DNA of 57,082 nt from Prorocentrum cordatum (taxonomy: Eukaryota): positions 62,001-119,082 of the forward strand of contig CAUYUJ010000047.1 in NCBI GenBank assembly GCA_963575745.1, read 5' to 3'. A program made the position numbers and the translations under genes. The notes under the pieces were generated by a model. The model had not been told where the DNA came from. It did not search any database and worked only from the letters and a program-made list of their open reading frames with translations. This document shows, piece by piece, positions 3,801 to 25,656 of this stretch. Position 1 is the first letter of the stretch. Each line of letters opens with the position of its first letter.

Positions 3801-4644
3801 GCTCTGCAGGGGGTGGGGGGGGGGGGAGGGGGCAGGGGGGAGCGTCCGCTTCTGCGGGGGGGGCGGATGCACGGAGCGGGGCTCCGCTCTGCAGCGGCGG
3901 GGGGGGCTGGGCTGCAGGGTAGGAGAGGGGGGGGGGGGGGCTGCGGGTCCGTTGCAGGGGAAGGGGGGTCCCGCTCATGGTAGGAGGAGGGAGCTGCAGG
4001 GAGGACGGGTGGGCTGGTCTGCAGGAGGGGGGGGAGATAGGGAGCAGGGGAGGAGAGGGGGATCCGCTCTGCAGGGGGGGTGGGGGGGGCTGCAGGGAGG
4101 AGGTCCGCTCTGCAGGGGGGGGGGGTGCTCTGCAGGGGGGGGTGGTGCAGGGGGAGGGGGGGTTCGCTCTGCAGTGGGGCGGGGGGGCTACAGGGGCGAG
4201 GTCCGCTCTGCAGGAAGGGGGGGGGGCAGGAAGCGGGAGGGGGCGTTCTGCAGGGGATGGGGGGTTCCGCTCTGGGAGGGGGGGGGGGCGAAGCACTGAA
4301 TTTGGTCGGGGGGAATTGAAGGTTCCCCCCCTCCTCCCCCCGAAGCACTGCTGAATTAGGTCGGAATGAGGTCGGGGAAAAAATGAGGTCCCCCCCTCCC
4401 CCCCGCAGAGCGAAGCTTGAGCGAGCTCAAGCCTACGCTCTCAGAAACTCACACGCCGGATCGGCGGATTTTTCGTTCCCCTAAGGAAGAGCTGCATGAA
4501 GGACGCGCCGCGAGGTCCTGACCCAGGAGCAGCGCCAGACATAGAAGCGGGTGGTGAGATGGATCGTATGCGCTCTATCGCACAGTCCCCAGTAGCTCGC
4601 AGCATCGTGCTGCGGCAGCGTCAAGATCTGGACAATGTGAAAGG
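861..4644 (+). CDS. Putative short N-terminal exons of the channel gene (approx. 861-1122, 1530-1664, 2075-2173, 2840-2945, 4486-4644)
   Basis: GC3-rich coding-like segments (LQGVLERLQHLSQQLGPLEQL; DCEWEFDNDEPG; ASWERTPLIGREEG; MDRMRSIAQSPVARSIVLRQRQDLDNVK), mostly bounded by AG acceptors and AG|GC or AG|GA donors. Phases were not fully reconciled. Confidence 0.3.
2255..2430. mobile_element. MITE with terminal inverted repeats
   Basis: AAAGATACGGATACGTGTTGTCCCC ... GGGGACAACACGTATCCGTATCTTT is a perfect inverted pair. The interior resembles 25713-25785. Confidence 0.75.
3015..3160. mobile_element. Palindromic MITE family (other copies ~32250-32380 and ~33575-33712)
   Basis: Three dispersed copies share the core CTGGCGCGCTCCGCGCGCCAGGG, flanked by inverted CGCGCGGATTT/AAATCCGCGCG-like arms. 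Confidence 0.65.
3175..4469 (-). mobile_element. Helentron/DINE-like non-autonomous element with CTGCAGGGGG tandem cargo
   Basis: Hairpin TGGCC-TCC-GGCCA (3181-3193); subTIR CCGCCGATCCGG (3197-3208) with perfect inverse CCGGATCGGCGG (4456-4467); ends GGAT|T. Confidence 0.7.
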
Positions 4645-4804
4645 CTTCGCCCTCTCCCACTGGCCGCAGCGGGAAGGGGTGGGTGGGAGGGGGCAGGATG
4701 CCAGGTATGGCGCGAGTGCATCCAGCTTGACTGCAAAATCTCTCTGCTCTCTCCCTCCCTCCCTCCCCCTCCCTCCCTCTCCCCCTCTCTCTCTCTCTCT
4801 CTCC

Positions 4805-4847
<43 letters not shown>

Positions 4848-6429
4848 TCAACGTATGTTTGTATGCGTATGCATGTGCATGTTTGTACATGCTTTAATGT
4901 GTACACAAATGTGCTTGCACAAATATATAAAGATACAGGCACACTAGTTCTACGCCTCCCGTCCTTTCTTACATCCCTGTCCCTTATTACTACTTACTCC
5001 CACTCTGGGCCTCTGCCGACCGATGGCCGCCCAATCCGGGTGGGTCCCAGCCTTCGTGCAAGAAGTCAGCGACGGGCGAGGGGCGAAGTGATAAGGAGAA
5101 GGTTTTCGCAGGAGGTGGCGGGGACTCCTCAGAGGCCCTCGCGCCTTCTGCCCGATCGTATCGCATCGTTACATCACGGCCCGAGGTTCTGCCCCTCAGA
5201 CCTGCTCTGCTCTTGCCCGTGCCCGGGGCCATCACCGATCTTCGCGGTGTGACACTGATCCCCGTCTCATTGGCCTCTTCGGTGTCCGTTCCCATCTCCT
5301 GCGCCTTCAACACAACACAAAAGCCCTCGCGCCTTCTGAGAGGTGTTGCGTCTTCCGGGAAGGCTTCTAAAACTCTTCAAAAGGGCCGGGGGACTCCCGC
5401 GCCTTCTGAGAAGACCCGCCCCTGCGCACTTCCCCACTGCGCTCGCCGCCAAAAAGACAGTACAACATCGACGATGATCGTTTCAAGATGGACGCTGTGT
5501 CGTTCATGTTGCAAAATGCGTGGCGGGGATGGAACGGGGCGCACATCCCGCGCGAAAGGCCGAAATGCCGCCCTCGCCTCGCGCCACGCACGTGTTCCTG
5601 GAGAGTCGGGCTCCCGCTGCGGCGCGGCGCAAATGTTCTGCACGCCGCCCCGTCGACGCACGAGCGGGCAAAGGCGTAGCTCTCGCTCCGGCGCCGCGCA
5701 GCATTCGCCTGCAGGTGGCGATCCCGCCCCGACGCGGCGCCGGCCTGTTGCCCGCCAGTTGGGGAGGGCCCGCGCGGGCGGGCGGCCTGTCACCCGCGCC
5801 CGAGCTCCGTGCGCACGTCGCTCGGAAGCGTGGTGTCCTGCGCGGGCGCGGCGCCTGGCTTTTGGCCGCCGGGCCGCGCGCGGGCGGCAGCGGCAGCCGG
5901 GCCGCGCGAGAGCGGGCGAAAGGCTGTCCTCCTCGCCCTCCTCCTCCTCCTCCTCCTCCTCCTCCTCCTCCTTCTCCTCCTCCTCCTCCTCCTCCTCCTG
6001 CAGTGTGTCAGTGCAGTTGGCAGTGTCGTGTCAGCGCGGCGCCTGCTGCGGCCTCGCCGCGCCCGCCTGAGGCCCCGTCCCGCCCCTGCGCGGCCCGCGT
6101 GGCGTGCCCTTTCGCCACGTCGTGGGACGCGGGGCCGCGCGCGAGGGCCTTCCTTCTGCAAGGTGGGAGCGCGCTCCGCTCCCAATGTCAAGTTGTGCCA
6201 CGAATGGTCATGATTCTTCGTATGTCGTGGGAGGACCGGCGGGAATAGAGGGGGCCCTGTGACTTGCTTGGCATGGCGAACTTGAGGATATCCCTATTCT
6301 TTTTGTTCCCGGGAAGGGCGTGGGCCCAGGGCTCTCTTTTAGTGGGTTTACCCCCGGGTCTGACGGGAAGAGGGCCGGCGGATTTCTCTTGCGATAGATA
6401 ACGAGTGGGAAGAGGGCCGGCGAATTAAA

Positions 6430-7360
6430 TTTTGAGGATGTCCCTAGCGAAACGCTTGTTTTTCAGAATTTGTTGAGGATGTCTCGAGCGAAACGCTTGT
6501 TTTGTGGTATAGATTGTCTTCTCCTGGGGACCAGCATTTAGAGGATCTCTCAAGTGAAATGCTTGGTTTCACGTGCCCAGGTCTTGAGGATGTCTCGAGC
6601 GAGACGCTTGGTTTCACGCCTCCAGGTTGCCCAGGCAGAGGTCAAGCGCCAGGATGTGTTGAGGATGTCTCGAGCGAGCCGCTTGGTTTCACGCGTCCTC
6701 GTCGCCCAGGCAGATGTCTAGCATGAGGAGGTGTTGAAAACGTCTCGAGCGAAACGCTTGTTTTCATGTGCCCAAGTCACCCAGGCGGACGTCTCAAATG
6801 AATATGTGTTGAGGATGTCTCGAGCGAACTACTTGTTTTCACGTGTGAAGTTCGCCCAGGCGGATGTCTAGCATGAGGAGGTGTTGAGGAAGTCTCGATC
6901 GAGATGCTTGTTTGCACGTGTCCAGGTTGCCCAGGCGGATGCCAAGCATGAGGATGTGTTGAGAATGTCTCGAGAGATACGCTTGTTTTCACGTGTCCAG
7001 GTCGCCCAGGCGGATGTCTAACATGAAGATGTGTTGAGGATGTCTCGAGCGAGACGTTTGCTTTCACGTGTACAGGACGCCAAGGCGGATGTCTAGAGTG
7101 AGGAGGTGTTGAAAACGTCTCGAGCGAAACGCTTGTTTTCATGTGCCCAAGTCACCCAGGCGGACGTCTCAAATGAATATGTGTTGAGGATGTCTCGAGC
7201 GAACTACTTGTTTTCACGTGTGAAGTTCGCCCAGGCGGATGTCTAGCATGAGAATGTGTTGAGGTGTTGAGCGAAACGTTTGTTTTCACGTGTCCAGGTC
7301 GCTCAGGCGGATGTCTAGAATGAGGATTTTGACAGGATGTCTCGAGCGAAACGCTTGTCC
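6430..7360. repeat. 75-bp satellite array (GAGGATGTCTCGAGCGAAACGCTTGTTTTCACG...)
   Basis: About 12 diverged units with 25-aa periodicity in ORF 6777-7142. Confidence 0.85.
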
Positions 7361-7828
7361 CCAGCACGTTCCGTAGCGCGTCCCCTTGGCACGTCCTACG
7401 GTGCGACCCCATGGCACGTCCCCTGGCACGTCGCCTGGCGCGTCCCTTGGGACGTTTCGCGGCGCGTCCTCCTGGCATGTCCCCCTGTCAATTAGCTCTG
7501 GGGCAGCTTCTATGTGTTCAGGCAGCTCGAGCTTAAGATCCAGATCAGTTCGGTCAGGACTCGGATGCAAAGGAAGACTCGATCCACGACGCCATAGAGC
7601 ACAACCGCAGCATGGCACATCGCAATTCAGCACGGTGCAGCACAGCAGAGTCCTCGGCACGGTACATCAAGATCGATACAAGCAGCATTGCACTTGCCCG
7701 TCACCCAATCAGGTGTCTTTGAAAACGCTGCCATGCGTTAAATTTCTATATTCCTTTCCGGGGTCGTGGGTCGATCATGTTTGTTTTTGTTTCTCTGTCT
7801 CTCTCTCTCTCTCTCTTTCTCTCTACTC

Positions 7829-9063
7829 TTAAGTCGGGCCTGTTCCTCTACAGGAGGAATATTCAAAAATAGTCTGGGGACGATTCTTGGATCATGTTTG
7901 ACTGTTTATGAATATCCAGAAGGGGTTCGCCCCCTGCCGCCGGCCCCCTCTATCGGAGAATGGGCAATGCAAGAGCGAAATCGTGAGGCCTTGGCGCCGC
8001 TGTGAAGCAGCGTCGGGACTTCACGCGAAGACGATGAGTAATCGGCAAGACAAATTGAGATCCTGATGATATTGTTGAATTCGGTGTTGTATTTCGAGCT
8101 TGCTCGCGTATGCTGTGCAAGAAGATTTTCCACGAAGTATTGAATTGTTGCGAATACCGTGTGTTGTTTGACCCTGACCCCACCGATCTGCGTGATGGGT
8201 GCCACCGAATTTCAAGACATGTGGCAAAACCCGTTGGTTTTTCGACCCTGACCCCGCCGATCTGCATGAGGAGTGTCACCGAATTTCAGAAATGAACAAA
8301 TCCCTTGTGTTTTTGGACCCCGACCCCGCCGATCTGCGTGAGGGGGGCCACCGAATTTCAAGACATGTGGCAAATCCCATTGGTTTTTCGACCCTGACCC
8401 CGCCGATCTGCATGAGGAGTGTCACCGAATTTCAAAAAAAAAAAAAAAAATCCTTTGTTTGTTTGGACCCTGACCCCGCCGATCTGCAAGAGGGGTGCCA
8501 CCGAATTTCAGGCATGTAGCAAATCCCTTGTGTTTTTGGACCCTGACCCCGCCGATCTGCGTGAGAGGTGTCACCGAATTTCAAAAATGTGGCAAATCCC
8601 ATGTGTCTTTAGACCCTGACCCCGCCGATCTGCGAGAGACGTGTCGCCGGATTTCAGAAATGTGGCAAATCCCTTGTTTGTTTGAACCCTGACCCTGCCG
8701 ATCTGCGTGAGGGGTGCCACCGAATTTCAGGCATGTAGCAAATCCCTTGTGTTTTTGGACCCTGACCCCGCCGATCTGCGTGAGGGGTGTCAAGTTCGAC
8801 CCCCCCTCAGAAATTTTGATGCCCCTCCTGGGAGGTGCTAACCAGGGCGGTTTTTGGCTCCCCCCCTCGCGCGGTCTACAACAAGGAACAGTAAGCAGCA
8901 AGAAGCAGAACTGTAACAGTGGAAACTAGAAACTGGAACTGGCGCAGGGAACAGCAAACCCTGAGCCTACGGCCTGGTGGCCCCACAAGGGGGCCGGTGG
9001 ATTTGTTGACTATTTTCGTTTTTCCATCCACAATCCGCCTGAAGGGGGACATGCCCGACCTAA
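7829..9063. mobile_element. MITE (TIR AAGTCGGGCNTGTYCCYCTACAGG) split by a nested element
   Basis: Left TIR at ~7830; right TIR CCTGAAGGGGGACATGCCCGACCTAA at ~9038-9063. An uninterrupted copy lies at 52892-53052. Confidence 0.7.
7907..9002 (-). mobile_element. Helentron/DINE-like element carrying a 73-bp satellite
   Basis: Hairpin AGGGG-TTCG-CCCC(C)T (7921-7935); subTIR CCGCCGGCCCCCT (7937-7949) and AGGGGGCCGGTGG (8988-9000); 73-bp array ~8165-8790. Second copy at 18210-19304. Confidence 0.75.
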
Positions 9064-10089
9064 CTCTACTCTCCGCGCTGGGGGCCGGGAAGCCTAGGCA
9101 CGCAGGAATCGGCAGAAAGCTCGAACCAGGACCCAAAAACGGGAACCCCAGCAATTGACCGCCCAACGAAGTCGTCGGCACAATCTCACCAAATATGCAT
9201 AACATTGGGAAGCCATGACCTGGACCGAGGAACCCGGAAACTTTGGGAAAGCTTGCCGTTGTCCGGCACTGGCACACAACTTACATTAAATTGTGATTAC
9301 AATATTCGTGATTTTCATGTCATTACAAACACGGATTGGGGAACGCACCATGCATCACCACGGTGTCACAAACAGCAGCATTGAGCCAGTGTGTGATTGG
9401 CATTGCCTCGTGGCATTGTCAAAGCGCACCGATATGTCAAACATTGCTTCATCATTAGAAACAGAGCCATCATGAAACATGACTGCCAATATACGCTGGT
9501 AGATGCACATTTGCAGACAGCAAAGTGTCAGAGCCAGGTATCAAAAGCATCAACCAAGGACACCTTCTGCCCAGCAATGCAATACCACCATGTGCTCAGA
9601 AATTGCTCAATAATTCACGCAGTTTTGCTTCCACGAACATCAAATTATGTTGGGACCACCCTAACACGGGCGAGCACATCGTAATTGGTTCCGAGTCACA
9701 AGTTGTGTGATGTTTGATTATGATCACAGGTCCGCATTGTACCAGACCGGCGTCCAGTAGCTTCAGTACCACCGAGAGCACACAGAAGTGAGCAAACATA
9801 AGAAAGAAAGAAAAGCGACGGACAGCAGGGATGTCAAACGTGAGGTCCCAGGAGAAGAAACAGGGCTCATGCTGGTGGGTCCCTGTGAGGCCTTCAATGG
9901 TGGTTCTGAAGACCCCTCCGGCACACCCTGGCTGAGAAAGGTCTTTGTAGCGTCGCTAGTTCCACAGCGGTGTCTTGCTACTTGCATGTTAAAAGTGACC
10001 ATAGGCATTGAAACGTGCACGCGTTCTACAGTACATACGCACGCTCGCATTCACATGCGCGCAACCAGACATTAAGTTGGTCTTCGCAG

Positions 10090-10858
10090 GCTGGTGCCCC
10101 GACAAGGTGGGCTGTCGGGTAGCAGCCATGCGCCCAGCCGCGTGAACGTTCGCAGGGCCACGACGACGACAGGGGACAGCTACACGATGTTGCCGCACCA
10201 ACGGCTGTGCCCCATGCACCCAGACCACAAACCGCGGATGATATTGGATCTCGTTTTCGTCTTTATGACGGCGTATGACTGCTGGGCGGTGCCGTACCAG
10301 ATGTCCTGGCGCGTCGAGTACACGGGGTGGTTCGCCGTGTGGACATATTTCACTTTGGTGTGGTGGACGATCGATATGTTCCTTGGGTTCTTCTTCGGGT
10401 ATTACCGCAAGAGTCGCATCGAAATGCGACTGAATAAGATTGCTTGGCGCTACTTGAGAAAAGATTTTGGCTTCAACCTGGTTGCCGTCGTCGCGGATTT
10501 CATCGTCCTCGCGATGGTGAGCCGTCGGCAGTATTTGGGGAAGGAAGGGTTCGGTCTCCAAGTGGAGAACGTTGCCAGGATATGTAAGGTCAGCCGCCTC
10601 ATCCGCATGATAACGTTGCTGTTGCAGCGCGGAGGGTTGAGCCAGTTCTACAACCGCGTGGTGAACTGGTTGCAGGAGCGCGGACTCAGTCGTCAGTTCC
10701 AAGCCTTCAACACAGTCATGCAGCTAGTCTTTCTCATCTTCTGGGTAAGTCACTTAGGTGCTTGTTTCTGGCACTACGTTGGGAGAAACGCCATCGCTAC
10801 TTGGTACACCAGTACGGAGATAGACAATGCCAGTCCAGGTTTCGATTATTTATTGTGT
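10090..10858 (+). CDS. CNBD-family (KCNH/HCN/CNG-like) cation channel, exon encoding S1-S5
   Basis: TTCGCAG|G acceptor. Motifs MHPD..PRMILDL, YDCWAVP, WWTIDMFLGFFFGYY, IAWRYLRKDF, S4-like RICKVSRLIR and S5 FWVSHLGACFWHYVG are typical of the CNBD channel ion-transport domain. Confidence 0.9.
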
Positions 10859-10981
10859 TAGCCAAGAGGCGTACGTACGCCATCCCGTCGACCCCCAGAC
10901 GAAGTGAGAATCCCTTGGACCTTGCTAGGGCGAGGTCAGGCGGGGCTTGAGTGCCGTTCGTGACGATCTGGATTTTGGGAA

Positions 10982-12488
10982 ATGCGCCGCCCCCTGTCGA
11001 TTCATCACAGGGGTGCCTGGTTTGCTAGATGATTTTGGTTTTGGTTTTGGTTCTTTTCCAAAAGAACTCCCCCTGGGGCTCCGGCGCGTCCCGCCGGCCA
11101 CCCGGAAGACCCGGTTGTAAACGGGTTTCCTGCCCCAGACGGCCCCAAGATGGCCCAAGATGGCCCAAGATGGTTTCCAAGACGGCTAAGATGGCCCCAA
11201 TATGCCTCGAAGACGGCCCAAGATGCACCCAAGACGGCCTAAAGTAGCCTCAAAATGGCCTAAGACGGCCCAAGGCCCCCAAGAGGCCTCCCAGACGCTC
11301 CAAGAGCTCGTCCAGGAGGGCCCGACGAAGCCAAAATCATTGATTCTCCTTACGTGTTTGAAGGATTTTGGCATTTGCGTCTTTTCGGCCTTCCGACGGC
11401 TGAAGACAGCATAAGAGGCCCCCAAGATCGCCCCAAGATCGCCCAAGAGGCTTCCAAGAGCGCCCCATGACGGCCCAAGAGGCCTCCAAGACGGCCCGAA
11501 GAGGGCCCCAAGGCGGCCCAAGAGGCCTCCAAGACGCCCAAGATGGCTTCCAAGACGGCCCCGAAGCGCCCCAAGAGGGCCCCAAATCGGTTCAGAGAAG
11601 TCCCCAAGACGGCCCCCGACGGCGTCAGACGGGCCAGGAACCCACCAAGATGGCCGAAGTTGGCTCGAAGCTAGCCCAAGAAGGCCCAAGAGGCCTCCAA
11701 GAGGGCCTCCAGGAAGGCCAGGAAATGCCAAGCACCACTGATGTTCCGCAGGTTTTTGAAGGATTTGGGCATGTGCTTCTTTTCGGCCTTCCGACGGCCC
11801 GAGACGACCCAAGAGCCCCCAAAGATCGCCCAAAGATCGCCCAAGAGGCCTCCAAGATGGCTCCAGAGCGGCCCAAGAGCCCCCAAGACGGCCCCGAGAG
11901 GCCCCCAAGACGGCCCAGGAGGCCTTTAAGACGCCCAAGATGGCCTCCAACATGGCCCTGGAGCATTCCAAGAGGGCCCCAGGTCGGCCCAGAGAGGCGC
12001 CCCAAACGGCTTCCGACGGCGTCAGACGCCAGGAGAGATGGCCCAAGACGGTCCACGAGGCCTCCAAGAGGGCTTCCAGAAGTCATTGATTTCCTCTGGG
12101 TTTTTTGATGGATTGTGGCATTTGCTTTTTTGTCGGCCTTCCGACGGCCCGAGACGGCCCAAGTACCCCCAAAGATCGCCCAAGAGGCCCAAGACGGCCC
12201 CAAGAGGCCCCCAAGATGGCCCAAGAGGTCTCCAAGACGCTCAAGATGGCTTCCAAGACGGCCCAAGAGCCTTCCAAGACGTCCTCCGAGAAGGCCCGAA
12301 ATGGTCAAAATGGCCTCCAGACGAACAAGATGACCTTCAAGATGCACACGGGTTCCCCGAAGGCTTTCCAAACCGCTTCGGGGAACACATGGCCCGATAA
12401 CTTGGCAGGTCTGGCCTCAACGTTCGGCCACATAGGCGCTTCCAAAAAGGCAGGGGGCGGCGGTGATTCGCCGTAGGCGTCTTCGATC
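10982..12488 (+). mobile_element. Nested Helentron/DINE-like element with CCAAGA-based tandem cargo
   Basis: subTIR CGCCGCCCCCTG (10985-10996) and perfect inverse CAGGGGGCGGCG (12451-12462), followed by hairpin CGCC-GTA-GGCG. The interior is ~10-bp GGCCCAAGA-type repeats in higher-order units. Confidence 0.7.
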
Positions 12489-12497
12489 AGGAGACAG

Positions 12498-12611
12498 AGA
12501 AGAGGAGGACGAGGAGGAGGAGAAGGAGGAGGAGGAGGTGGAGGAGGGGACGAAGGATGATGATGATGCTGATGCTGATGCTGATGATGATGATGATGAT
12601 GATGATGATGC

Positions 12612-12666
<55 letters not shown>

Positions 12667-13230
12667 CATGATCATGCTCATGATCATGATCATGATCATG
12701 ATCATGATCATGATCATGATCATGATGAGGATGAGGATGAGGAGGAGGAGGAGGAGGAGGAGGAGGAGGTGAGGACGCACGCACGCGAGGTCCACCCACC
12801 CAGAGAGGGAACATGTCAACGTGGGAGGCTTTTTCGAGCCTCTTGGGGACATGCTCGGGGCGTTTGAAGCTTCTGCTGGGCCTGCTGGTGGTCTCTCGAG
12901 GCCTCCTGGGGGGTTCTGAGGCGCCTGCTGGCGGTCTCGGGGCCCCCTTGGAACGGAGGGGCTCGACATGTCAATTCGAGTCACAACTCTCTCTCTCTCT
13001 CTCCCTCTCTCGAGGAGGAAGGGGAGGAGGAGGAGGAGGAGGACGAGGACGAGGAGGAGGAGGAGGAGGAAGAGGAGGAAGAGGAAGAGGAGGACGAGGT
13101 GCAGGAGGAGGAGGAGGAGGAAGAGGAGGAAGAGGAGGAAGAGGAGGAGGAGGAGGAGGAGGAGGAGGGGGAGCGGAAGGGGGAGGGGGAGGAGGAGGCG
13201 GAGGAGGAGGTGGAGGAGGAGGAGGAGGAG
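12498..13230. repeat. (GGA)n and (GAT)n microsatellites
   Basis: Directly visible. Confidence 0.9.
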
Positions 13231-13548
13231 TGGCCCTTTGGGGCCATCTTGAGGTTCTCTCGGAGGCTTGTTGGGCTGCTTTGTGGCGACCTGACGGGCC
13301 TCTTGAGCAGTTATGGAGGGTGTCAAGACCAAAAAGGCGAGCATGCAAAACCCAAAAAAACAATTGGGACGATTCTGCTTCTTGGGACACGGAGTGTCGA
13401 TTTGGAGGATCTGAAGGCCACGGGAGTGTTGAATAGTTCTGTCCCCCACGCGTCCCTTTCGCTCTAACAGGATGTTAGACCCCAGGGGAGGGAGAAAGGG
13501 AAGGGGGGATTGCGCCTTGCACCCCCCCGCAAGTGGGGATCGGCGGAT

Positions 13549-14424
13549 TATTGGTCAGTCAGTGCGCTCATATCGGGAGGCAGCATCATGGAGGTGACCC
13601 AATCGTCTGAGGTTCTTTGCCTCTGCGTGTTCATCATATTCGGGCTCCTCTTCCTCAGCATTCTCATATCGGCCCTTGCTGCTACTGTCATGGACCTGAA
13701 CATGTCCAACAAAGAGCGCAAAGACAAGCTGCGGATGCTTCGTCGGTACTTCTACCAGCATCAGGTGGAAGCACCGGTAGCCATTCCCATCGAGAAGCAG
13801 GCCATCGAGCGCATGGGAAATGTGGCGCGCATCCGCGCTGGGGATGTCGACGTCTTGGCGTTTGTGTCGCCTGCCATGCGAGCGGAGCTCCGTTGCTGTG
13901 TCTACGGCCCGGGCCTCTCTCGCAATGCGTTCATCAGGGCCGTCAATGCGGTCGACAGCGGTATAATTAAGGATCTCTGCTTCAACGAGAGAGCACTGAT
14001 GCAGATGAACTACGATCCAGGCAACTCCGTCTTCGAGCCGGACACGGATGCGCCTGGTGCTTACTTCATCAACTTTGGCTCCCTCGAGTACACGAACGCC
14101 TGGACAGCTGAGGAGAGGTCGAACGCCACGGGTGCCACGGGCAACACCAGGACCAACGGCCAGGTGCAGGAGGTGGCCCAGGGCCAGTGGGTCTGCGAGC
14201 TGGCCCTGCACACGCAGTGGATGCACTGCGGCTGGATGGAGGCGTCCACCGTGTGCGAGCTGCTGGCGGTGGCCGCGGACGGCCTGATGAAGGTGCTCGG
14301 CAGCAGGAAGGAGCTCCTGACCATCGCGCAGCACTACGGAGAGGCGATCATCACGGCAACCAGGCGGGAGGCGCTTGGCATGTTGAGCGACCTGCGCATG
14401 GCCATAGACCACGAGAGTATTATC
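13549..14424 (+). CDS. Channel exon: pore loop, S6, C-linker and cyclic-nucleotide-binding(-homology) domain
   Basis: YWSVSALISGGS pore; S6 EVLCLCVFIIFGLLFLSILISALAA; C-linker LRMLRRYFYQHQV...SPAMRAEL; CNBD VFEPDTDAPGAYFINFGSLEY...GQWVCELAL...EASTVCELLAV. Confidence 0.9.
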
Positions 14425-14574
14425 TGATGGGCCTGTTTTCCACCACCGCCACCTTAAGTTGGATGGGGGGGAGGAGCAGGAGGACGAAGAGGAGGACGAA
14501 GAGGAGGAGGAGGAGGAGGAGGACCCCCATCCCCCTCCAACTTATGGTGGTGGTAGTGGAAAACATGCCCATCA
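14425..14574. mobile_element. MITE inserted in a coding exon
   Basis: TIRs TGATGGGCCTGTTTTCCACCACCGCCACC-TTAAGTTGGA and TCCAACTTATGGTGGTGGTAGTGGAAAACATGCCCATCA; flanked by TTATC/TCATC (probable 5-bp TSD); (GGA)n core. Confidence 0.8.
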
Positions 14575-14579
14575 TCATC

Positions 14580-14630
14580 ACGTCCATGCCGCTCAAGTCC
14601 CGCATCGCTCTCTCCCAGGGAGCCCTGAAG
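14580..14630 (+). CDS. Channel gene exon segment (TSMPLKSRIALSQGALK)
   Basis: Continues DHESII seamlessly once the MITE plus one TSD is removed; ends at an AAG|GC donor. Confidence 0.7.
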
Positions 14631-15259
14631 GCGTCGGTGGCGCGCCAGCCGGGACTGCGACCGCAGAGCCAGCGTTCAAGGTTGAGCGCCGCTAGAAGAG
14701 GAGGAGGAGGAGGAGGAGGATGCAGAACGATTTGCGCTCGCGAAGAGGGGCCATCTCTCGAGGTTGGACGATCCACGGGGTCAGGAGCCAGCGCCGCTGT
14801 CATCGCGACGCGAACCTGCGGTGAAAGGCAGGGGGTTCCTCAGAAGCCCTCCCGCTGTCGACGAAGCGTTCCAGGAGGCCTCCGTTCTCTTCGAAGATGC
14901 ACCCTGCCTACTGAGAAGGCTACCCAAAGCAAATCCGCTCAACATGGGTACCCGAACCCCTCCTAGTATCTGTCCAGGTCAGTGCTCAGTTTTTCGAGCT
15001 GCGCCAAACGACGTCATCCTGTGAGATTCGACGCCAAAAATAGATGCACATCAAAAACGTCAACCGGAGCAGGTACATAATCTTTCTGCCACCTTTTTCG
15101 AGCTGAATCGATCCGTGAGGATCGAGGGGCGCGAAGCAAGGCAAAATCGCCCGTTGTGGAAAAAATGGATTGAAAGAAAAACGACGCCATGATCTCAGGG
15201 TCGTCGTTGGGGTCGTCGTCCCCCCTCGCGGCACCCCCCCTTCGTGCGCGCCGACAGAG

Positions 15260-15373
15260 GCCCTGGACACGAGCCAGCACTGGGGCTTCCTCGCGGGCAT
15301 GCAGCCGCGGCGCGACCTGTACCAGCTTGAGCAGGAGCTGAGGAAGGGCAAGTGCGATATTGTGATCAGCGAG
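15260..15373 (+). CDS. Channel gene exon (ALDTSQHWGFLAGMQPRRDLYQLEQELRKGKCDIVISE)
   Basis: AG|GCC acceptor and GAG|GA donor, phase 0 on both sides; coding-like GC3. Confidence 0.75.
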
Positions 15374-15765
15374 GAGCCTGCTCCTGCTATCCTCGGGTGA
15401 ACATGGGTGTTACCTGGGGAGGGGGGGGGGCAGTCATCCAGCGTCTTGAATAATCGGGACTGAGGGCTATCAGAAAAAAAATCAGGATGAACAACCCGTC
15501 CCAGGTAATGGGTCGAGACTTCCAGGGACCTCGTATCGATTAACCGAGGTAAGTCTCTAGTTTTGAGGACCCTCCTCCTCCTCCTCTTCCTCCTCCCCCC
15601 CCTCCTTCTCTGTCGTTGTTGCGCGGCGGTTGCCGCGGAGAAATAGTTCTTTGCCACCATCGGTAGACCCCAGTCCGTCGAGAAGGGTGTTGACTTGATA
15701 ACTAGTTTCCACCATTGGGGGGGGGGCCCTTCTGAAGACCTGCCTTGGCCCAGCCAAGACATCGG

Positions 15766-15797
<32 letters not shown>

Positions 15798-16019
15798 GGA
15801 GGGGGGAGCGACGAGGGCCAGCGGGCGCCAGTGCGAAGCGTGGCGCGAGGGAAGGGAAGGCGGGGAATCGGTAGCGGAACGTGTCGCGATTTGCACAGGC
15901 GAGCTCTAACGGGGAGGGGCGGAGTTGCCCAGTCGTTGGGATGCCCGCTCTCCTCCGAGGAACCGCAGAAGTGGCCTTCGATTCGATGGAGCGGAGTAGC
16001 AGCTCTGTGAGGGTGGGAA

Positions 16020-16086
16020 AAAGAGAACGAGAGAGAGAAAGAGAGAGTGAGAGAGAGACACAGACACAGACACAGACACAGACACA

Positions 16087-16123
<37 letters not shown>

Positions 16124-16410
16124 ACACACACACACACACACACCCACACACACACACACACACACACCCACACACACCCACACACACCCACACCCCCCCC
16201 CACACACCCACACCCACCCACACACACCCACACACCCCCACACACACCCACACACCCCCACACACCCCCACACACACCCACACACCCCAACACACCCCCA
16301 CACACCCCCACACACCCCCACACACCCCCACACACCCCACACGCACACGCACACGCACACGCACACGCACACGCACACGCACACGCACACGCACACGCAC
16401 ACGCACACGC

Positions 16411-16499
<89 letters not shown>

Positions 16500-16552
16500 C
16501 ACGCACACACACACACACACACACACTCTCACACACACACACACACACACAC
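16020..16552. repeat. (GA)n/(CA)n/(CACACG)n microsatellite
   Basis: Directly visible. Confidence 0.95.
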
Positions 16553-16995
16553 TCTGCGGCGTTGCATTTTCCCGGTTCTGGCGTTGCCTCAGGGCTTCTA
16601 TTGTGTGAATAATCGGTGGGTGCAGGCCTGCGCCAGCTGACGTCCCCCAGGATTGTTTGGTGTTACTTGTTCATTGTGGCGCTCCCTGGGGGTGCTTGGT
16701 CTTGTTTGCTTACTGCCCCCCCTTGGGTTTCCTGGTTTTGTTTCCTTGCTGCATTCCCTGGGTTGTTTGGCATCGTTTTCTTGATGTTGTCCCGGGTAGT
16801 CTGCTCTTGTTTTCTCACTGCATGTTCCGTGTTTCTTGGTCTTATTTCAGCATTGGTTACCTCGGGTTGCTAGGTATTGTTTTCTCATTGCGTTTCCCGT
16901 GCCATAATGCAAAGCAGCGCCGCGCAGCGATGCCTAGCTATGCCAGGCAAGGCAAGAAGGTGCCAAGCAAAGCAAAGCATTGCACGCGCTGCTTA

Positions 16996-17365
16996 CTCCG
17001 GATTCCATAATAAAGTGGGGGGGGGGGGTCACATTTTTGGGGGGGGTCTGATTTGAGCCGTCTTGGAGGGTTCGGGGGGGTCTGGGCAGAGGGCCGCCCT
17101 TTCATGGATGGTCTCGGGGGGGGTCTAAAACTTCTCGTCTGGGAGGGTTGTGACCCCCTCCCCTTTTGTTACGACATCTGGAGTACTCCAGATTTCGTAA
17201 TAAAAGGGAGGGGGTCTGGACCCTCCAAGACAAGCCATTTCAGACCCCCCCCCGTGGGAGAACCCTCCAAAACACCGTCCCCAGACCCCCCCAGGCCCTC
17301 CAAGATAGCCGAAATGAGACCCCCCCCGAAATGAGACCCCCTCCCTTTTGTTACGAAATCTGGAG
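16996..17365. mobile_element. TA-flanked MITE dimer forming a large palindrome
   Basis: A TIR resembling CTCCAGATTTCGTAAYAAAAGGGAGGGG occurs four times in alternating orientation, with TA at 16994-95, 17184-85 and 17366-67. Confidence 0.7.
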
Positions 17366-17481
17366 TAGTCATTGATGCGCATCCGATGGGAGTCGCGCCG
17401 GGGGCGAATGGTTGCTTGCGACGCGGGCCCCCGCGGATCTCGACACCCCGTCCCGGAGGCTGGCTGTCCACGTTTGGGCTC

Positions 17482-17850
17482 GAGTCGGGCGTGTCCCTTT
17501 ACTCTGGACGCCCGACATGGGTACCGAAAGAATGGGTACAATGCCCAACAGCAGTTCCTGTTCATTCTGAACAGGACTCGCTGTCCGCGCCGCCGCGGCC
17601 TGTGTCCATTCGAGACAGAAGGCCGCCTGCCAAACAGCGGCTGCTGTTGGTTTGGGACAACATTTGTTGTTGGGCATTGTACCCATTCTTTCGGTACCCA
17701 TTTCGGGCGTCCAAATTTACAGGAGGACTATTCAAACATGGAGAGAAAATAGTCTGGGGACGAGTGTTTGAGCATTTATTGCATATATTTTGGGGGTCTT
17801 CTTAATTTTTCGTCCAAAACCCTCCTGTAGGGGGACATGCCCGACCTAAT
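17482..17850. mobile_element. AAGTCGGGC-family MITE with a second MITE (17502-17717) nested in its left TIR
   Basis: The inner element has ~45-bp TIRs (TGGACGCCCGAMATGGGTACCGAAAGAATGGGTACAATGCCCAACA) and a TA duplication at 17500-01 and 17718-19. Confidence 0.8.
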
Positions 17851-18209
17851 TTTACGCATGTCTTGGCGGCCCTGGCATCGGGAACCCGTCCCCAGGGGCC
17901 GGAAACGTTGAAACAGTGTCGTCGCGATGTTCTTGTTCCGCCGAGATCTGAGGGCACCACGCAGTCGGGCCCCCGGGCATCCGACGAAGTGTTTCTTTTC
18001 CATCTCGGGGCCTCCATAGAGGCCCCAACCCCTTCTCCTGGGAGCAGTTGCTCATTCCAGACGTTTGAGATGATGGGCCCGCCGCCTCACAGCGGCTCCG
18101 CGAAGAGGCCACGCCTAGACGGGGCATCGGCCGAAGATAGTATAGAACAAAAGGTAAGGAAGCTCCCGTGAGATCCGACGTTGCGAGGAAGTGCAACATC
18201 GCGAAAAAT

Positions 18210-19304
18210 TATGCGTAAGGGCTTCGCCCCATGCCGCCGGCCCCCTGTCTCGGATAATAGGAGATGCAAAAGCCAAATAATGAGGTCTGGGCGCCGCCGT
18301 GAAGCAGTGTCGGGACCTGTTTGTTTTTCGACCCTGATCCTATGGATCTGCGTGAAGGGTGCCACCGAATTTCAGAAATGTTGCAAATCCTTTGTGTTTT
18401 TTTACCCTGACCCTGCGGATCTGCGTGAGGGGTGCCGCCGAATTTCAAACATATGGCAAATCCCATATGTTTTTGGACCCTAACCCTGTCGGTCCTTGTG
18501 AGAGGTGCCACCGAATTTCAGAAATGTTGCAAATCCCCTAGGTTTTCGGACCCTGACCCCGCCGATCTGCGTGAGGGGTGTTATCGAATTTTAGAAATGT
18601 CGCAAATCCTATGTATTTGTGGACCCTGATCCCGCCGATCTGCGTGAGGGGTGCCATCGAATTTCAGAAATGTTGCAAATCCCTTGTGTTTTTGCACCCT
18701 GACCCCGCCGATCTGCGCGAGGGGTGCCACCGGATTTCAGAAATGTAGCAAATCCCTTCTGTTTTTGCAGCCTGACCCCGCCGATCTGCGTGAGGGGTGC
18801 CATCGAATTTCAGAAATGTTGCAAATCCTTTGTGTTTTTGCACCCTGACCCCGCCGATCTGCGTGAGGGGTGCCATCGAATTTCAGAAGTGTAGCAAATC
18901 GTATGTGTTTCTGGACCCTGACCCCGCCGATCTGCGCGAGGGGTGCCATCGAATTTCAGGAATGCGGCAAACCCTTTGTGTGTTTGCAACTTGACCCCGC
19001 CGATCTGCGTGAGGGGGGCCACCGAATTTCGGAAATGTAGCAAATCCTTTGTGCTTCTGGACCCTGACCCCGCCGATCTGCGTGAGGGGTGTCAATTGTT
19101 CCCACCCCAGCAATTCAGAGCACACGCTCAGGGCGTGCTAAACCTGCCCGTTTGGGCCTCCCCCCCCTCGCGCGGTCCATCAACAAGGAACAGCAAGCAG
19201 CAAGAAGCAGAATTGTAACAGTGGAAACTGGAAGCTGCAACTGGCACAGGAAACTGCGAACCTTTGCCCTACAGCCTGGTGGCCCCACAAGGGGGCTGGC
19301 GGAT
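18210..19304 (-). mobile_element. Helentron/DINE-like element with 73-bp satellite (same family as 7907-9002)
   Basis: Hairpin GGG-CTTCG-CCC; subTIR 18234-18246 and 19290-19302; ~10 units of 73 bp (ORF starts offset by 73). Shares the 3' block AACAAGGAACAG...GGCCCCACAAGGGGG. Confidence 0.78.
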
Positions 19305-19913
19305 TACCGGAGCCCGAGACCCCATTTCTCGGCTTCATGATCGAGCTGAATCGATACGTGATGGTCCCAGGATCCGAAACCAAACGAAAATGCCCAGTGT
19401 GAAGAAACGGCAACGCTCAGATCTCAGGGTCCTGCTCAAGCTTGACTGCGGCTCCCAGATGCCAAGATCCACGGAAGCACGCATGGGTCGAAAGAGACGG
19501 TCCGCCAGAGCTCTCAGGAGGGGCACTTTCCGTTAAAACAAACATACATGCACGCACACAAAAAGAACAGTTGCCGACCCCAAGAGGTGTGGATCCCTTC
19601 CCTGGGACTGGTTTCTCATCCTGAGTCGTTTGCTGACGGTCCCGGGGCCCGGTAGAGGTCCTCGGAAGCCGAAAATAACTAGCAAAAATCCTTTCTACGT
19701 TTTTTGGTCACGACACGAGGGGGCCTGGGAAGCACGCCAGGATCGCAAAAGGCTGTTCGCCAGAGCTGTCAGAGAGGGGCACTCCAACCAAACAACACGT
19801 ACAGGCACACACCACGACGCGAGGGAGCCTGGGAAGAGCGCCAGGATCGGAAAAGGCAGTCCGCCGGAGCTGTCAGAGAGGGGCACTCCAGCCTAAAAAC
19901 ACGCACCGGCACG

Positions 19914-19956
<43 letters not shown>

Positions 19957-20333
19957 ACGCACGCACACGCACACGCACACACACACACACACACCCGCAC
20001 ACACACACACACACACACCCGCACACACACACACACACACACACACACCTTTTGCGTCGGCGGCTAGGCAGAAGGACTGCGCTGGCGGATAGGGCGTTGG
20101 TAGGGCATACGACCGCGAATTCAGCCGCGGCGCACGAGGGGGGAAGGAGGAGGCGCCCGGCGGTGGCGGGAGGGAGGCGGAAGCCGGGCCCGCTCAGAGC
20201 ACACACACATACCCGCCAAGCGCGGGGCGCCCACGAGGCGCCCACGCGCGCCTTCCATACAGCTTCATGAGGAAGCACAGCGAGAGTCCCCCACGTGAGT
20301 GTAAGCACTGCTTGGGGAGGGGATCGAGAGCAG

Positions 20334-20465
20334 GAGGGGCGGGTGCTGCGCGTGGTCTCCCTGTGCCTCGCGCGCCTCACGCGCGCGGACGGCCGCGTCC
20401 TGGCCGAGCTCGGCGACATGAAGGACGGCAGGCTCTCCATGGGCTGCAAGCTGCCCGGCACAAAG
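20334..20465 (+). CDS. Channel gene exon ([44 protein letters not shown])
   Basis: CAG|GAG acceptor and AAG|GC donor, phase 0; resembles the N-terminal strands of a Nudix fold. Confidence 0.8.
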
Positions 20466-20490
20466 GCGCCGCGGAGAAGTCCGACCCCCG

Positions 20491-20496
20491 ATGATT

Positions 20497-20538
<42 letters not shown>

Positions 20539-20605
20539 TTGATGATGATGATGTTGATGCTGATGATCATGATCATGATCATGATCATGATCATGATCAT
20601 AATGG

Positions 20606-20643
<38 letters not shown>

Positions 20644-21191
20644 GTGATGGTGATGGTGATGGTGATGGTGATGATGATGATGGTGGTGATGATGGCAAAA
20701 CGGAGAAGTCCGGCCCCCTCGTGTCGTGTCAGAGCGGAACACACGGCTGGATCAGCAGGTCGACCGTGCCAGATCGAGGGTGCCCCTGTGTCCTGCGTAA
20801 ATGATGATGATGCTGATTATGATGATGATGCTGATGATGATAATGATGCTGATGATGATGATGATGACGATGATGCTGATGCTGATGCTGATGCTGCTGC
20901 TGCTGCTGCTGCTGATGCTGCTGATGATGAGGATGCTGATGGTGATGCTGATGCTGGTGATGATGAGGATGCTAATAATGCTAATGATGCTGATGCTGAT
21001 GAGGAGGATGAGGATGATGTGGATGATGCTGATGCTGATGCTGATGCTGATGCTGATGCTGATTATGATGCTGCTGATGACGATGATGATCATGATGGTG
21101 ATGATGATGATGGTGGTGGTGTTGGTGGTGATGTTGATGATGGCTATGATGATGATGATGATGATGACGATGATGATGATGACGATGATGG

Positions 21192-21229
<38 letters not shown>

Positions 21230-21232
21230 GTA

Positions 21233-21301
<69 letters not shown>

Positions 21302-24460: not shown

Positions 24461-24505
<45 letters not shown>

Positions 24506-24827: not shown

Positions 24828-24901
<74 letters not shown>

Positions 24902-25236: not shown

Positions 25237-25293
<57 letters not shown>

Positions 25294-25652: not shown

Positions 25653-25656
25653 GATC

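What the first reader, a model, noticed from the sequence alone, without database searches (positions are those of the whole stretch)
10850..13560. 2.7-kb element sits in the pore-helix codons with no clean splice sites
Seen: the S5-pore ORF stops at TAG 10859-61, exactly where the element starts. It resumes at YWSVSAL right after the element's GGAT end. Precise removal gives DYLLC-YW or DYLLC-YYW. A GC donor exists at 10861, but the matching 3' end is GGA rather than AG. The canonical alternative (GT at 10839 to AG at 13557-58) deletes pore-helix residues. Inference: either a recent gene knock-out or a non-canonical intron defined by end pairing. The flanking exons have no other stops or frameshifts.
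Basis: partly seen in the sequence, partly recalled or inferred. Interest (0 to 1): 0.72.

Follow-up and report, generated by a model that had tools for sequence, protein, structure and literature searches.

The report
Non-canonical intron in dinoflagellate channel gene
A 2.7-kb stretch of repeats that interrupts the pore-helix codons of a dinoflagellate ion-channel gene is exactly missing from the messenger RNA although its ends lack the usual splice signals, so it behaves as an unusual intron rather than a gene knock-out.

Summary
The ORF ends at TAG 10859-61 and resumes at TAT TGG (YW) at 13549. No G[T/C/A]..AG pair restores the pore helix.

RNA-derived contigs from 4 runs of 4 studies (one poly(A) RNA-seq) all join 10859 to 13547. 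This skips 2687 nt whose ends read AG..GG or, one base on, GC..GA. The product is DYLLC-YY-WSVSAL, the same length as in homologues (P0019 has DYLLSYYWSVSAL). This junction ranks 1 of 1477 candidate junctions by homology; the best canonical one ranks 248.

The same contigs also skip an ordinary GC..AG intron (14631-15259) and a 155-nt near-perfect hairpin (14422-14576) that cannot have canonical ends. The gene spans more than 32 kb. Its closest named relative is a Prorocentrum cordatum ion-transport protein.

Best reading (about 0.6): a real intervening sequence removed from RNA through non-canonical junctions, as in Amoebophrya, here in a Prorocentrum-like dinoflagellate.

Main rival (about 0.25): the transcripts come from an identical copy or allele that lacks both inserts. 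No DNA run was available to decide between these.

The parts
10120..10860 (+). Exon (S1-S5 and the start of the pore helix) of a 6-TM ion-channel gene. The last codons are GAT TAT TTA TTG TGT TA.
   Evidence: RNA contigs of 4 of 4 runs lie on 10120-10859 with 0-2 differences (table 8). ORF 10076..10861. 54-58% identical to P0151 and P0001.
10859..10861 (+). In-frame TAG that ends the ORF if the element is kept. In the mRNA its T and A become part of a TAT (Tyr) codon.
10861..13547 (+). The element under study: a 2687-nt intervening sequence absent from RNA contigs. Its ends read GC..GA, or equally 10860-13546 with ends AG..GG.
   Evidence: table 5: joint 10859->13547, skips 2687, 'both' = 1, one contig in each of X1, X5, X10 and X15, with 255 letters or more on each side. 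No RNA cover at 10926-11139 or 12638-13493 (table 2).
10868..10881 (.). 14-nt perfect palindrome GGCGTACGTACGCC, 8 nt inside the 5' end of the element.
   Evidence: Read. No function shown.
11132..12281 (.). Arrays of a 10-11-nt unit (consensus about CCCAAGACGG), arranged in three higher-order units of about 350-400 nt.
   Evidence: periods 10, 11, 21, 32, 43. (families D7, D8 and D10; spacing 398 and 349-350).
12341..12487 (.). Dispersed repeat inside the element. It matches abundant RNA contigs from elsewhere (11 other letters and 3 gaps over this stretch; depth 252 in X1) and holds an 11-bp inverted repeat, GTTCCCCGAAG / CTTCGGGGAAC.
   Evidence: table 8 (records 2 and 9) and table 3. Sequence.
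12502..12769 (.). (GAG)n, (GAT)n and (GATCAT)n microsatellites.
13012..13230 (.). (GAG)n microsatellite.
13548..14421 (+). Exon covering the pore helix (Y)YWSVSAL, filter region ISGGS, S6, C-linker and a weak cyclic-nucleotide-binding-like domain.
   Evidence: RNA contigs lie on 13547-14421. 67% identical to P0151 and P0152. Pfam cNMP_binding E 0.023, below the cut-off.
14422..14576 (+). Second non-canonical intron: 155 nt, a near-perfect hairpin (14424-14478 pairs with 14520-14575) with a 3-nt boundary repeat ATC. The possible ends are AT..TC, TC..CA, CT..AT or TG..TC.
   Evidence: table 5 (joint 14421->14577, 'both' = 3, in X1, X5 and X15; the X10 contig stops at 14424). (dG -57.8 and -80.2 against -15.7 and -31.7 in shuffles). 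(its two arms are the only matches in the window).
14577..14630 (+). Small exon.
   Evidence: table 8 (14577-14628 plus the shared AGGC).
14631..15259 (+). Ordinary dinoflagellate intron: GC..AG with boundary repeat AGGC (AG|GC ... AG|GC).
   Evidence: table 5 (joint 14628->15258, 'both' = 4, 4 of 4 runs). Sequence. The pattern is as in Mendez 2015 (PMC5032977, sections 11 and 15 read).
15260..15373 (+). Exon. The next intron is most simply GA..AG (15374-20333).
   Evidence: RNA contigs reach 15376. Homology scoring (the canonical option ties with the top score).
863..32599 (+). Extent of the whole gene by homology to P0151. Exon matches lie at 863-1135, 4484-4636, 10136-10855, 13549-14424, 14574-14648, 15242-15376, 20328-20465, 24031-24207, 25447-25677 and 32471-32599.
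   Evidence: tblastn.

Best explanation
The 2687-nt element (10861-13547, or equally 10860-13546) is a genuine intervening sequence of a multi-exon (more than 32 kb) 6-TM / cyclic-nucleotide-binding-like channel gene of a Prorocentrum-like dinoflagellate. It is transcribed with the gene and removed from the RNA exactly. TGT TA is joined to T TAT TGG, which restores the conserved pore helix DYLLC-YY-WSVSAL.

The removal does not use the dinoflagellate rule (G[T/C/A] at the 5' end, AG, usually AG|G, at the 3' end). The 5' end can be read as the common GC donor, but the 3' end is GA or GG. Only 1 nt is shared between the two boundaries.

Shown: precise absence from RNA-derived contigs of 4 studies; agreement of the junction with homologues; a second, hairpin-type non-canonical intron 875 nt downstream in the same transcripts; an ordinary GC..AG intron removed from the same contigs.

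Inferred: that the removal happens on RNA of this very locus, and that the machinery is either a spliceosome with relaxed 3' site choice or a separate pathway of the kind proposed for Amoebophrya and euglenid non-conventional introns. The element itself is minisatellite and microsatellite filler. It has no transposase, no terminal inverted repeat and no target-site duplication longer than 1 nt.
For: (1): the joint 10859->13547 appears in one long contig in each of X1, X5, X10 and X15 (4 of 4 runs laid, 4 studies; X15 is poly(A) RNA-seq). Each contig has at least 255 letters on both sides. The same contigs skip the GC..AG intron 14631-15259, so they are RNA-derived. X1 has 0 differences over 10120-10859, 13547-14421 and 15258-15376.
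(2): the 16 holder runs X1-X16 (5 studies) hold 0.30-0.35 of the sampled words of 10300-14300. That is about the exonic share, and no run holds half or more.
(3): 6 of 7 homologues fetched have [DES]YLL-x-x-[YF]W at this place (P0001 has DYALSLYW). The RNA junction ranks 1 of 1477 candidates and the best canonical one ranks 248.
(4): the 155-nt intron 14422-14576 in the same transcripts has no possible canonical ends. Its removal also restores homologue length (DHESIITSMPLKSR against DHESIVSAMPLESR in P0002). So non-canonical removal is not a one-off in this gene.
(5) Precedent: more than 60% non-canonical introns in Amoebophrya A25 and A120, some with 8-20-nt inverted and 3-5-nt direct repeats (PMC7789003, sections 11 and 16 read).
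(6) Gene models of core dinoflagellates, including P. cordatum, were built allowing only G[TCA] donors (PMC10666404, passages), so such introns would have been missed.
(7) No protein more than 74% identical to this exon is in the 5.8-billion-protein collection. This is what one would expect if the locus could not be modelled, though the genome may simply not be in that collection.
Against: All RNA evidence is from assembled contigs. Contigs cannot show that the transcripts come from this locus rather than from an identical copy without the element. No DNA run holding the stretch was listed, no whole genome is held, and two metagenome scans found nothing. So neither the filled nor the empty site could be checked in independent DNA.

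No unspliced contig crosses either boundary (table 2). That fits efficient removal but also fits a silent copy.

No signal that could define the ends was found. There is no end pairing above shuffles, no AG at the 3' end, several unused AGs between a CTAAC at 13465-13469 and the 3' end, and no second copy of either end region in the window. The one exception is an 11-13-nt motif at 4458-4470 of unknown meaning. Arbitrary ends are what a DNA-level insertion would give.
Confidence: 0.6

Rival explanations
1. DNA-level difference. The window's copy carries two recent insertions, the 2687-nt repeat block and the 155-nt hairpin (MITE-like) element, and is a dead or silent copy or allele. The transcripts come from an otherwise identical paralogue or allele with empty sites. 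That copy still has the ordinary introns, which are spliced normally.
For: Arbitrary boundaries are exactly what an insertion gives: only 1 shared nt, no AG, no end pairing. The 155-nt element looks like a MITE, with 29-nt inverted ends (26 of 29 matching, read) and a 3-nt flanking repeat. No RNA contig covers the unique parts of the element or crosses its boundaries (table 2). Dinoflagellate genes are commonly multi-copy (PMC11453091, passages).
Against: It needs two independent insertions within 1 kb of coding sequence of one copy, while 1734 exonic nt stay identical to the X1 transcripts (table 8). The three internal higher-order units of the element are only 78-91% alike (families D7, D8 and D10), which fits either age in place or insertion of an already old block. 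RNA contigs from elsewhere match parts of it only at about 90-95%, so no near-identical donor is seen. Hairpin elements with 3-5-nt boundary repeats are removed from RNA in Amoebophrya (PMC7789003).
Confidence: 0.25
2. Assembly or base error. Either one base is wrong or missing at the 3' end, so that the true intron is GC..AG (an AG directly before TTATTGG). Or the 2.7-kb repeat block was wrongly placed into the gene by the assembler.
For: A single base change or indel at 13545-13547 would turn GC..GA into the commonest donor class of P. cordatum (GC 51.4%; PMC10666404, Table 2 passage). The element is rich in tandem repeats that are hard to assemble. No independent DNA could be consulted.
Against: The exons on both sides are letter-perfect against X1 RNA (0 differences in 1734 nt), so the local base quality appears high. 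The neighbouring 155-nt intron cannot be made canonical by any single change; all four possible end pairs are non-canonical. An acceptor AG|T would in any case be of the minority type (AGG 79.7% in P. cordatum).
Confidence: 0.08
3. Library artefact. Reverse transcriptase jumped across the element (template switching), so the real mRNA keeps it.
For: Template switching is known to give false non-canonical 'introns' at direct repeats and across stable hairpins (recalled, not from a call). The 155-nt hairpin with its ATC repeat is the kind of structure where this happens.
Against: For the 2.7-kb element only 1 nt is shared between the boundaries and there is no hairpin. The joined form is the only one assembled in 4 studies. 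The unjoined form would truncate the protein at TAG 10859-61 (or at TGA 14425-27 for the hairpin), ahead of about 600 conserved residues.
Confidence: 0.02

Closest known systems
Non-canonical introns (NCIs) and introner elements of Amoebophrya sp. A25/A120 (Syndiniales), Farhat et al. 2021, PMC7789003
   Same: Dinoflagellate lineage. The introns are validated by RNA, have no fixed terminal dinucleotides, and sit in genes that also hold canonical introns. The 155-nt neighbour (14422-14576) has both hallmarks of their 'introner elements': inverted repeats that pair the two ends, and a 3-nt direct repeat across the boundaries. Most Amoebophrya NCIs (70-89%) lack such repeats, like the 2.7-kb element.
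   Different: The organism here is a GC-rich (about 60%) Prorocentrum-like core dinoflagellate, not a parasitic syndinean. The element is 2687 nt, whereas their analysis kept introns of 40-1000 nt. It has no inverted repeat above chance and only a 1-nt boundary repeat. No second copy was found in the 57-kb window, and the rest of the genome could not be searched.
Standard dinoflagellate introns: GT/GC/GA donor, AG (mostly AG|G) acceptor, identical repeated intron boundary (IRIB) of 2-9 nt (Mendez 2015, PMC5032977; Table 2 of PMC10666404)
   Same: The 5' end can be read as A|GC, and GC is the commonest donor in P. cordatum (51.4%). Length and repeat content are typical (mean intron 4709 bp in P. 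cordatum). The intron 14631-15259 of the same gene follows the rule exactly.
   Different: The 3' end is GA or GG, not AG. The boundary repeat is 1 nt and has no GG. Several AGs upstream of the 3' end are not used.
Non-conventional introns of euglenids (as reviewed in PMC11282704, passages read)
   Same: Non-canonical junctions. Lengths from dozens to thousands of nt. They occur beside conventional introns in one gene. The removal mechanism is unknown.
   Different: Euglenid introns pair +4..+6 with -8..-6 to bring the ends together and tend to have pyrimidine|purine at both junctions. Here +4..+6 is CAA or AAG and -8..-6 is ATC or TCG, which are not complementary, and no end pairing exceeds shuffles. 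The lineages are unrelated.
Introners (transposon-derived introns) of Polarella and Symbiodinium (Roy et al. 2023, not read; known only through citing passages in PMC11282704 and PMC11453091)
   Same: Dinoflagellate introns created by inserted elements.
   Different: Those are described with GC-AG type borders and as multi-copy families. This element has a non-AG 3' end, and no family could be shown.

Membership tests
Standard dinoflagellate spliceosomal intron | 5' end G followed by T, C or A | tested here: met
   GC at 10861-62 under one of the two equivalent placements of the RNA joint. Under the other placement the intron starts AG.
Standard dinoflagellate spliceosomal intron | 3' end AG (usually followed by G) | tested here: not met
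   The last two bases are GA (13546-47) or GG (13545-46), and the next base is T or A.
Standard dinoflagellate spliceosomal intron | Identical repeated intron boundary of 2-9 nt containing GG (Mendez 2015) | tested here: not met
   'both' = 1, and the shared base is A.
Amoebophrya-type introner element (NCI with IR and DR) | Non-canonical ends confirmed by RNA | tested here: met
   4 of 4 runs. The evidence is contigs, not raw reads.
Amoebophrya-type introner element (NCI with IR and DR) | 8-20-nt inverted repeat pairing the 5' and 3' ends | tested here: not met
   The best helix, 10885-10897 with 13534-13546 (12 bp including a G-U pair, plus one mismatch), is weaker than the mean of shuffles (z +0.58, 155 of 200 shuffles as good). 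The 155-nt neighbour does meet this feature (z -13).
Amoebophrya-type introner element (NCI with IR and DR) | 3-5-nt direct repeat overlapping the boundaries | tested here: not met
   1 nt for the 2.7-kb element. The 155-nt neighbour has 3 nt, ATC.
Amoebophrya-type introner element (NCI with IR and DR) | Many related copies in the genome | not testable with these tools
   No other copy of the unique parts in the 57-kb window (0 hits outside the element for 5 segments). No genome is held.
Euglenid non-conventional intron | Pairing of +4..+6 with -8..-6, and pyrimidine|purine at both junctions | tested here: not met
   Read: CAA or AAG against ATC or TCG. The junctions are T|A and G|A, or A|G and A|T.
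U12-type (minor spliceosome) intron | 5' consensus RTATCCTT (recalled from general knowledge) | tested here: not met
   The intron starts GCCAAGAGG or AGCCAAGAG.
Transposable-element insertion | Target-site duplication, terminal inverted repeats or LTRs, or a transposase/RT ORF | tested here: not met
   At most 1 nt duplicated. No terminal pairing. 0 Pfam families above their cut-offs in the 6 ORFs tested from both strands (5 within the element, 1 across its 5' end).
Voltage-gated-like 6-TM channel with C-terminal cyclic-nucleotide-binding-like domain (host gene) | Ion_trans (PF00520) and cNMP_binding (PF00027) domains | tested here: inconclusive
   The window's own exons give no Pfam hit for 10190-10858 and only a sub-threshold cNMP_binding hit (E 0.023; 15.1 bits against a cut-off of 27.5) for 13534-14424. 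Homologues P0151 and P0002 carry PF00520 (precomputed), and UniRef names P0001 'Ion transport domain-containing protein'.

The most novel reading that the evidence does not exclude
Free-living, photosynthetic core dinoflagellates (here a Prorocentrum-like species) have a second route of intron removal that needs neither G[T/C/A]..AG ends nor, for some introns, any terminal hairpin. It can excise kilobase-sized repeat blocks exactly from essential codons. Such introns would then be systematically missing from published gene models, which allow only G[T/C/A]-AG. A short 3'-terminal motif (GGATCGGCGGA|TT, present both at the end of this intron and 16 nt before the start of homology to an upstream exon of the same gene) could be part of the signal.
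Probability: 0.3. Interest if true: 0.8.

Novelty: new member of a known kind. Interest (0 to 1): 0.55.

Why it matters
If the removal is at the RNA level, non-canonical introns are not a peculiarity of the parasitic Amoebophrya. They would also occur in bloom-forming core dinoflagellates. The annotations of those multi-gigabase genomes (P. cordatum, Symbiodiniaceae, Polarella, Amphidinium) accept only GT/GC/GA-AG introns, so genes like this one would be truncated, split or lost from the catalogues.

The locus offers one gene with three kinds of intron side by side: ordinary GC-AG, hairpin-type non-canonical, and large non-canonical without a hairpin. That makes it a compact test case for asking whether one machinery or two remove them.

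If the rival is true, this is simply a dead copy, and the finding is a caution about reading insertions as introns.

Tried and rejected
- Whole-genome search of the window's own assembly: none is held.
- Copies of the element in the window: BLAST of 5 non-microsatellite segments gave 0 hits outside the element. The unfiltered search returned only microsatellite matches.
- Independent DNA for the filled site: an exact 34-nt pattern across the 5' boundary found nothing in metagenome contigs. A profile-based search for related loci in the same collection gave 403 pattern matches, none confirmed by tblastn.
- Rfam over 10000-15500: 16 matches at E up to 1, all on microsatellite palindromes or low-complexity sequence, and none near its gathering score.
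- Pfam on 6 ORFs (5 within the element, 1 across its 5' end): only sub-threshold low-complexity hits.
- Stepwise (recursive or nested 'stwintron') splicing: rejected by reading the sequence. Whatever is removed first, the last step must still end at GA|T or GG|A, and no inner intron with G[TCA]..AG ends can rebuild an AG there.
- A false de Bruijn join in the contigs: rejected. The two exon ends share only 6-7-nt words (GATTATT, TTATTG), far below an assembler's word length.
- A shared 5' motif: TAGCCAAGAGGCG has no second good match. The one hit with 2 mismatches, at 41065, is within chance expectation.
- Earlier notes of this scan: nothing for this genome, these words or this protein.
- Species naming: no protein more than 74% identical to the exon is on record. 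The organism can only be called Prorocentrum-like, from the closest named homologue and a G+C of about 0.6.
- RNA cover of parts of the element (11140-12637) comes from contigs mostly only 90-95% alike and from other records, that is, from related repeats elsewhere. It says nothing about this locus.


Full report
**What is in the sequence**

- An ORF (10076..10861) encoding S1-S5 of a channel runs ...NASPGFDYLLC and stops at TAG 10859-61.
- A second ORF (13468..14427) reads ...GSADYWSVSALISGGSIMEVTQSSEV... The TAT of YW is at 13549-51.
- The 2.7 kb between them consists of the following:
  - a unique 270-nt head that includes a 14-nt palindrome (10868-10881);
  - arrays of a 10-11-nt unit (about CCCAAGACGG, 11132-12281), organised in three 350-400-nt higher-order units that are 78-91% alike;
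  - a 150-nt dispersed repeat (12341-12487);
  - (GAG)n, (GAT)n and (GATCAT)n tracts (12502-12769 and 13012-13230);
  - unique sequence up to the 3' end.
- Six ORFs (five within it, one across its 5' end) gave no Pfam family above cut-off.
- Rfam gave nothing near a gathering score.
- No other copy of its non-microsatellite parts lies in the window.

**The host gene and organism**

A full HMMER search with the upstream exon found 1902 relatives.
- The best is P0001 (57% identity), named by NCBI/UniRef as an ion-transport-domain protein of Prorocentrum cordatum.
- P0153 comes from a Protoceratium transcriptome.
- tblastn of the 1169-aa homologue P0151 places ten exon matches between 863 and 32599 on the + strand, so the gene spans more than 32 kb.
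- Window G+C is about 0.6, as reported for P. cordatum (59.7%; PMC10666404, passage).
- No protein more than 74% identical to the downstream exon is in the 5.8-billion-protein collection. I therefore call the organism only 'Prorocentrum-like'.

**RNA evidence**

The run search listed 16 holder runs (X1-X16, 5 studies) with 0.30-0.35 of the sampled words of 10300-14300. That is about the exonic share. No run held half or more, so no DNA run of this organism was on offer.

I laid four runs of four studies (X1, X5, X10, X15; X15 is poly(A) RNA-seq) on 9000-15400.
- In each run one long contig lies on 10120-10859 and continues at 13547. The joint skips 2687 nt with 'both' = 1, so the removed piece is 10860-13546 (AG..GG) or 10861-13547 (GC..GA).
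- The mRNA reads TGT TAT TAT TGG, giving DYLLC-YY-WSVSAL.
- The same contigs skip 14629-15257 ('both' = 4). This can be placed as 14631-15259, GC..AG with the boundary repeat AGGC. That is the standard dinoflagellate pattern (Mendez 2015, PMC5032977, sections 11 and 15), and it shows that the contigs are RNA-derived.
- In X1, X5 and X15 the contigs also skip 14422-14576 ('both' = 3).
- X1 is identical to the window over all 1734 exonic bases laid. The other three differ at 1-5 places.
- No contig covers the unique parts of the element or crosses its boundaries.

**Agreement with homologues**

Six of seven homologues read have [DES]YLL-x-x-[YF]W at this place; P0001 has DYALSLYW. P0019 has DYLLSYYWSVSAL and P0004 has DYLLMFYWSVSAV.

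I scored all 1477 in-frame, stop-free junctions within +-45 nt against seven homologues.
- The RNA junction ranks first.
- The best of 26 G[TCA]..AG options ranks 248 and deletes or replaces pore-helix residues.

**Are the ends really non-canonical?**

Yes, given the assembly. Only two placements of the joint are possible, and neither ends in AG.
- Reading the other strand does not help.
- Nested or recursive splicing cannot rebuild an AG before TTATTGG.
- A CTAAC at 13465-13469 is followed by several AGs that are not used.
- The 5' side can be read as a GC donor, the commonest class in P. cordatum (51.4%; PMC10666404, Table 2 passage).

**End pairing**

- The z-scores are +0.58, +0.29 and 0.0.
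- A repeat with 50 nt gave 155 of 200 shuffles as good or better.
- In the minimum-energy fold of the whole element, the 5' junction pairs with 13377-13393 and the 3' junction sits in a local hairpin. Neither interaction beats shuffles (z -0.9 to +1.5).

End pairing is therefore not supported for this element.

**The neighbouring 155-nt intron**

This intron (14422-14576) is a different matter.
- It is a near-perfect hairpin: 14424-14478 pairs with 14520-14575. dG is -57.8 and -80.2 kcal/mol against -15.7 and -31.7 for shuffles, z -12.8 and -10.9.
- It has a 3-nt boundary repeat (ATC).
- Its four possible end pairs (AT..TC, TC..CA, CT..AT, TG..TC) are all non-canonical.
- Keeping it would stop the frame at TGA 14425-27. 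Removing it gives DHESIITSMPLKSR, the length seen in P0002, P0004 and P0010, and the RNA junction ties for the top of 1445 candidates.
- This is the anatomy of the 'introner elements' of Amoebophrya: 8-20-nt inverted repeats plus 3-5-nt direct repeats over the boundaries (PMC7789003, section 11).

**Other introns of the gene**

By homology scoring, three further junctions have a canonical option that ties with or comes close to the best score: 15374-20333 GA..AG, 20466-24033 GC..AG and 25666-32446 GA..AG.

The junction 24207/25447 is best fitted by a non-canonical join (for example 24211-25446, CT..TG). That join keeps the conserved spacing SRY-x-RNEF. The best canonical option adds 7 residues. 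Its ends pair moderately (z -2.6; 2 of 200 shuffles). This is homology only.

**What it most likely is**

The simplest account of all observations is a real intervening sequence that is removed from RNA through non-canonical junctions (about 0.6). The mechanism is not shown. Two are possible: a spliceosome that tolerates a GC 5' end with a non-AG 3' end, or a separate pathway like that proposed for Amoebophrya (where U1 snRNA was not found; PMC7789003, section 16) and for euglenid non-conventional introns (PMC11282704, passages).

The main rival (about 0.25) is that this copy carries two insertions and is silent, while an identical intact copy is expressed.
- For the rival: arbitrary ends are what an insertion gives, and contigs cannot tell loci apart.
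- Against it: it needs two insertions in 1 kb of coding sequence with no point difference in 1734 nt.

Base or assembly error (about 0.08) could hide a GC..AG intron, but it cannot explain the 155-nt intron. A reverse-transcription artefact is unlikely with 1 nt of shared sequence and the same junction in four studies (about 0.02).

**Comparison with what is known**

My searches and the passages read show the following.
- Core dinoflagellate genomes are described and modelled with GT/GC/GA donors and AG acceptors only. Sources: PMC10666404; PMC7557087; PMC5177918, which adds some C-starting donors in one species; and the review PMC11453091.
- Introns with other ends are reported for Amoebophrya.
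- I found no paper describing them in Prorocentrum or another core dinoflagellate. However, Roy et al. 2023 and the supplements of PMC10666404 were not seen, and the library lacks most subscription journals.

I therefore rate this a new member of a known kind. It is of moderate interest because the decisive DNA control is missing.

Noticed in passing
14422-14576: A 155-nt near-perfect hairpin intron with a 3-nt boundary repeat (ATC) and no possible canonical ends. It is skipped in RNA contigs of 3 of 4 runs (the fourth contig ends at its edge). This is Amoebophrya-style 'introner element' anatomy in a Prorocentrum-like genome.
   Followed up: yes
4458-4470 and 13537-13549: The 13-mer GGATCGGCGGATT occurs exactly twice on the + strand. 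One copy spans the 3' end of the 2.7-kb intron. The other lies 16 nt before the start of homology to an upstream exon of the same gene (4484). Both have CCCCCCCGCA upstream. It could be a shared 3'-terminal signal, the end of a repeat family, or chance. With up to 1 mismatch the 11-mer count (4) is within shuffle expectation, and the exact double match was not separately tested.
   Followed up: partly
10110-10125: The RNA contigs start to match at 10120 (..GGGCTGTCGGG|TAGCAGCC). The upstream intron ends in AG only if the unknown upstream exon ends in TAG. If the exon at 4484-4636 (..GACAAT|GTGAAA) is the neighbour, the intron would read GT..GT or TG..GG. The upstream part of the transcript (687 nt in X1) lay outside the stretch laid.
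   Followed up: partly
24208-25446: An intron filled with (CA)n that stays open in frame (HTHT/RTRT). The best homology-based junction is non-canonical (for example CT..TG, giving SRY-P-RNEF), while the best GT..AG option adds 7 residues. Its ends pair moderately (24222-24241 with 25430-25449; z -2.6). It is possibly a third non-canonical intron, but there is no RNA evidence.
   Followed up: partly
12341-12487: This segment inside the big intron matches highly covered RNA contigs from elsewhere (depth about 250 in X1; 11 other letters and 3 gaps) and carries an 11-bp inverted repeat. It is a transcribed dispersed repeat of unknown kind.
   Followed up: no
13570-13590 (protein ..SALISGGSIMEV..): The position of the K+-channel filter (TxGYG, recalled) is occupied by ISGGS here and by AGES, AGEN or AGGS in the homologues fetched. 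This dinoflagellate channel family probably has a different selectivity.
   Followed up: no
P0001 (P. cordatum homologue), residues about 690-712: The deposited model follows the family up to ..SPALRAELW and then ends in unrelated sequence (RIASTVLASPATRSSAP). The transcript-derived P0151 continues for about 470 more residues. The model may be cut short at an intron that the annotation rules could not place.
   Followed up: no
9000-9070: Many RNA contigs of all four runs pile up on about 40-60 nt here, with loose ends on both sides (summed depth 33-455). This is a short repeat that is widespread in transcripts.
   Followed up: no
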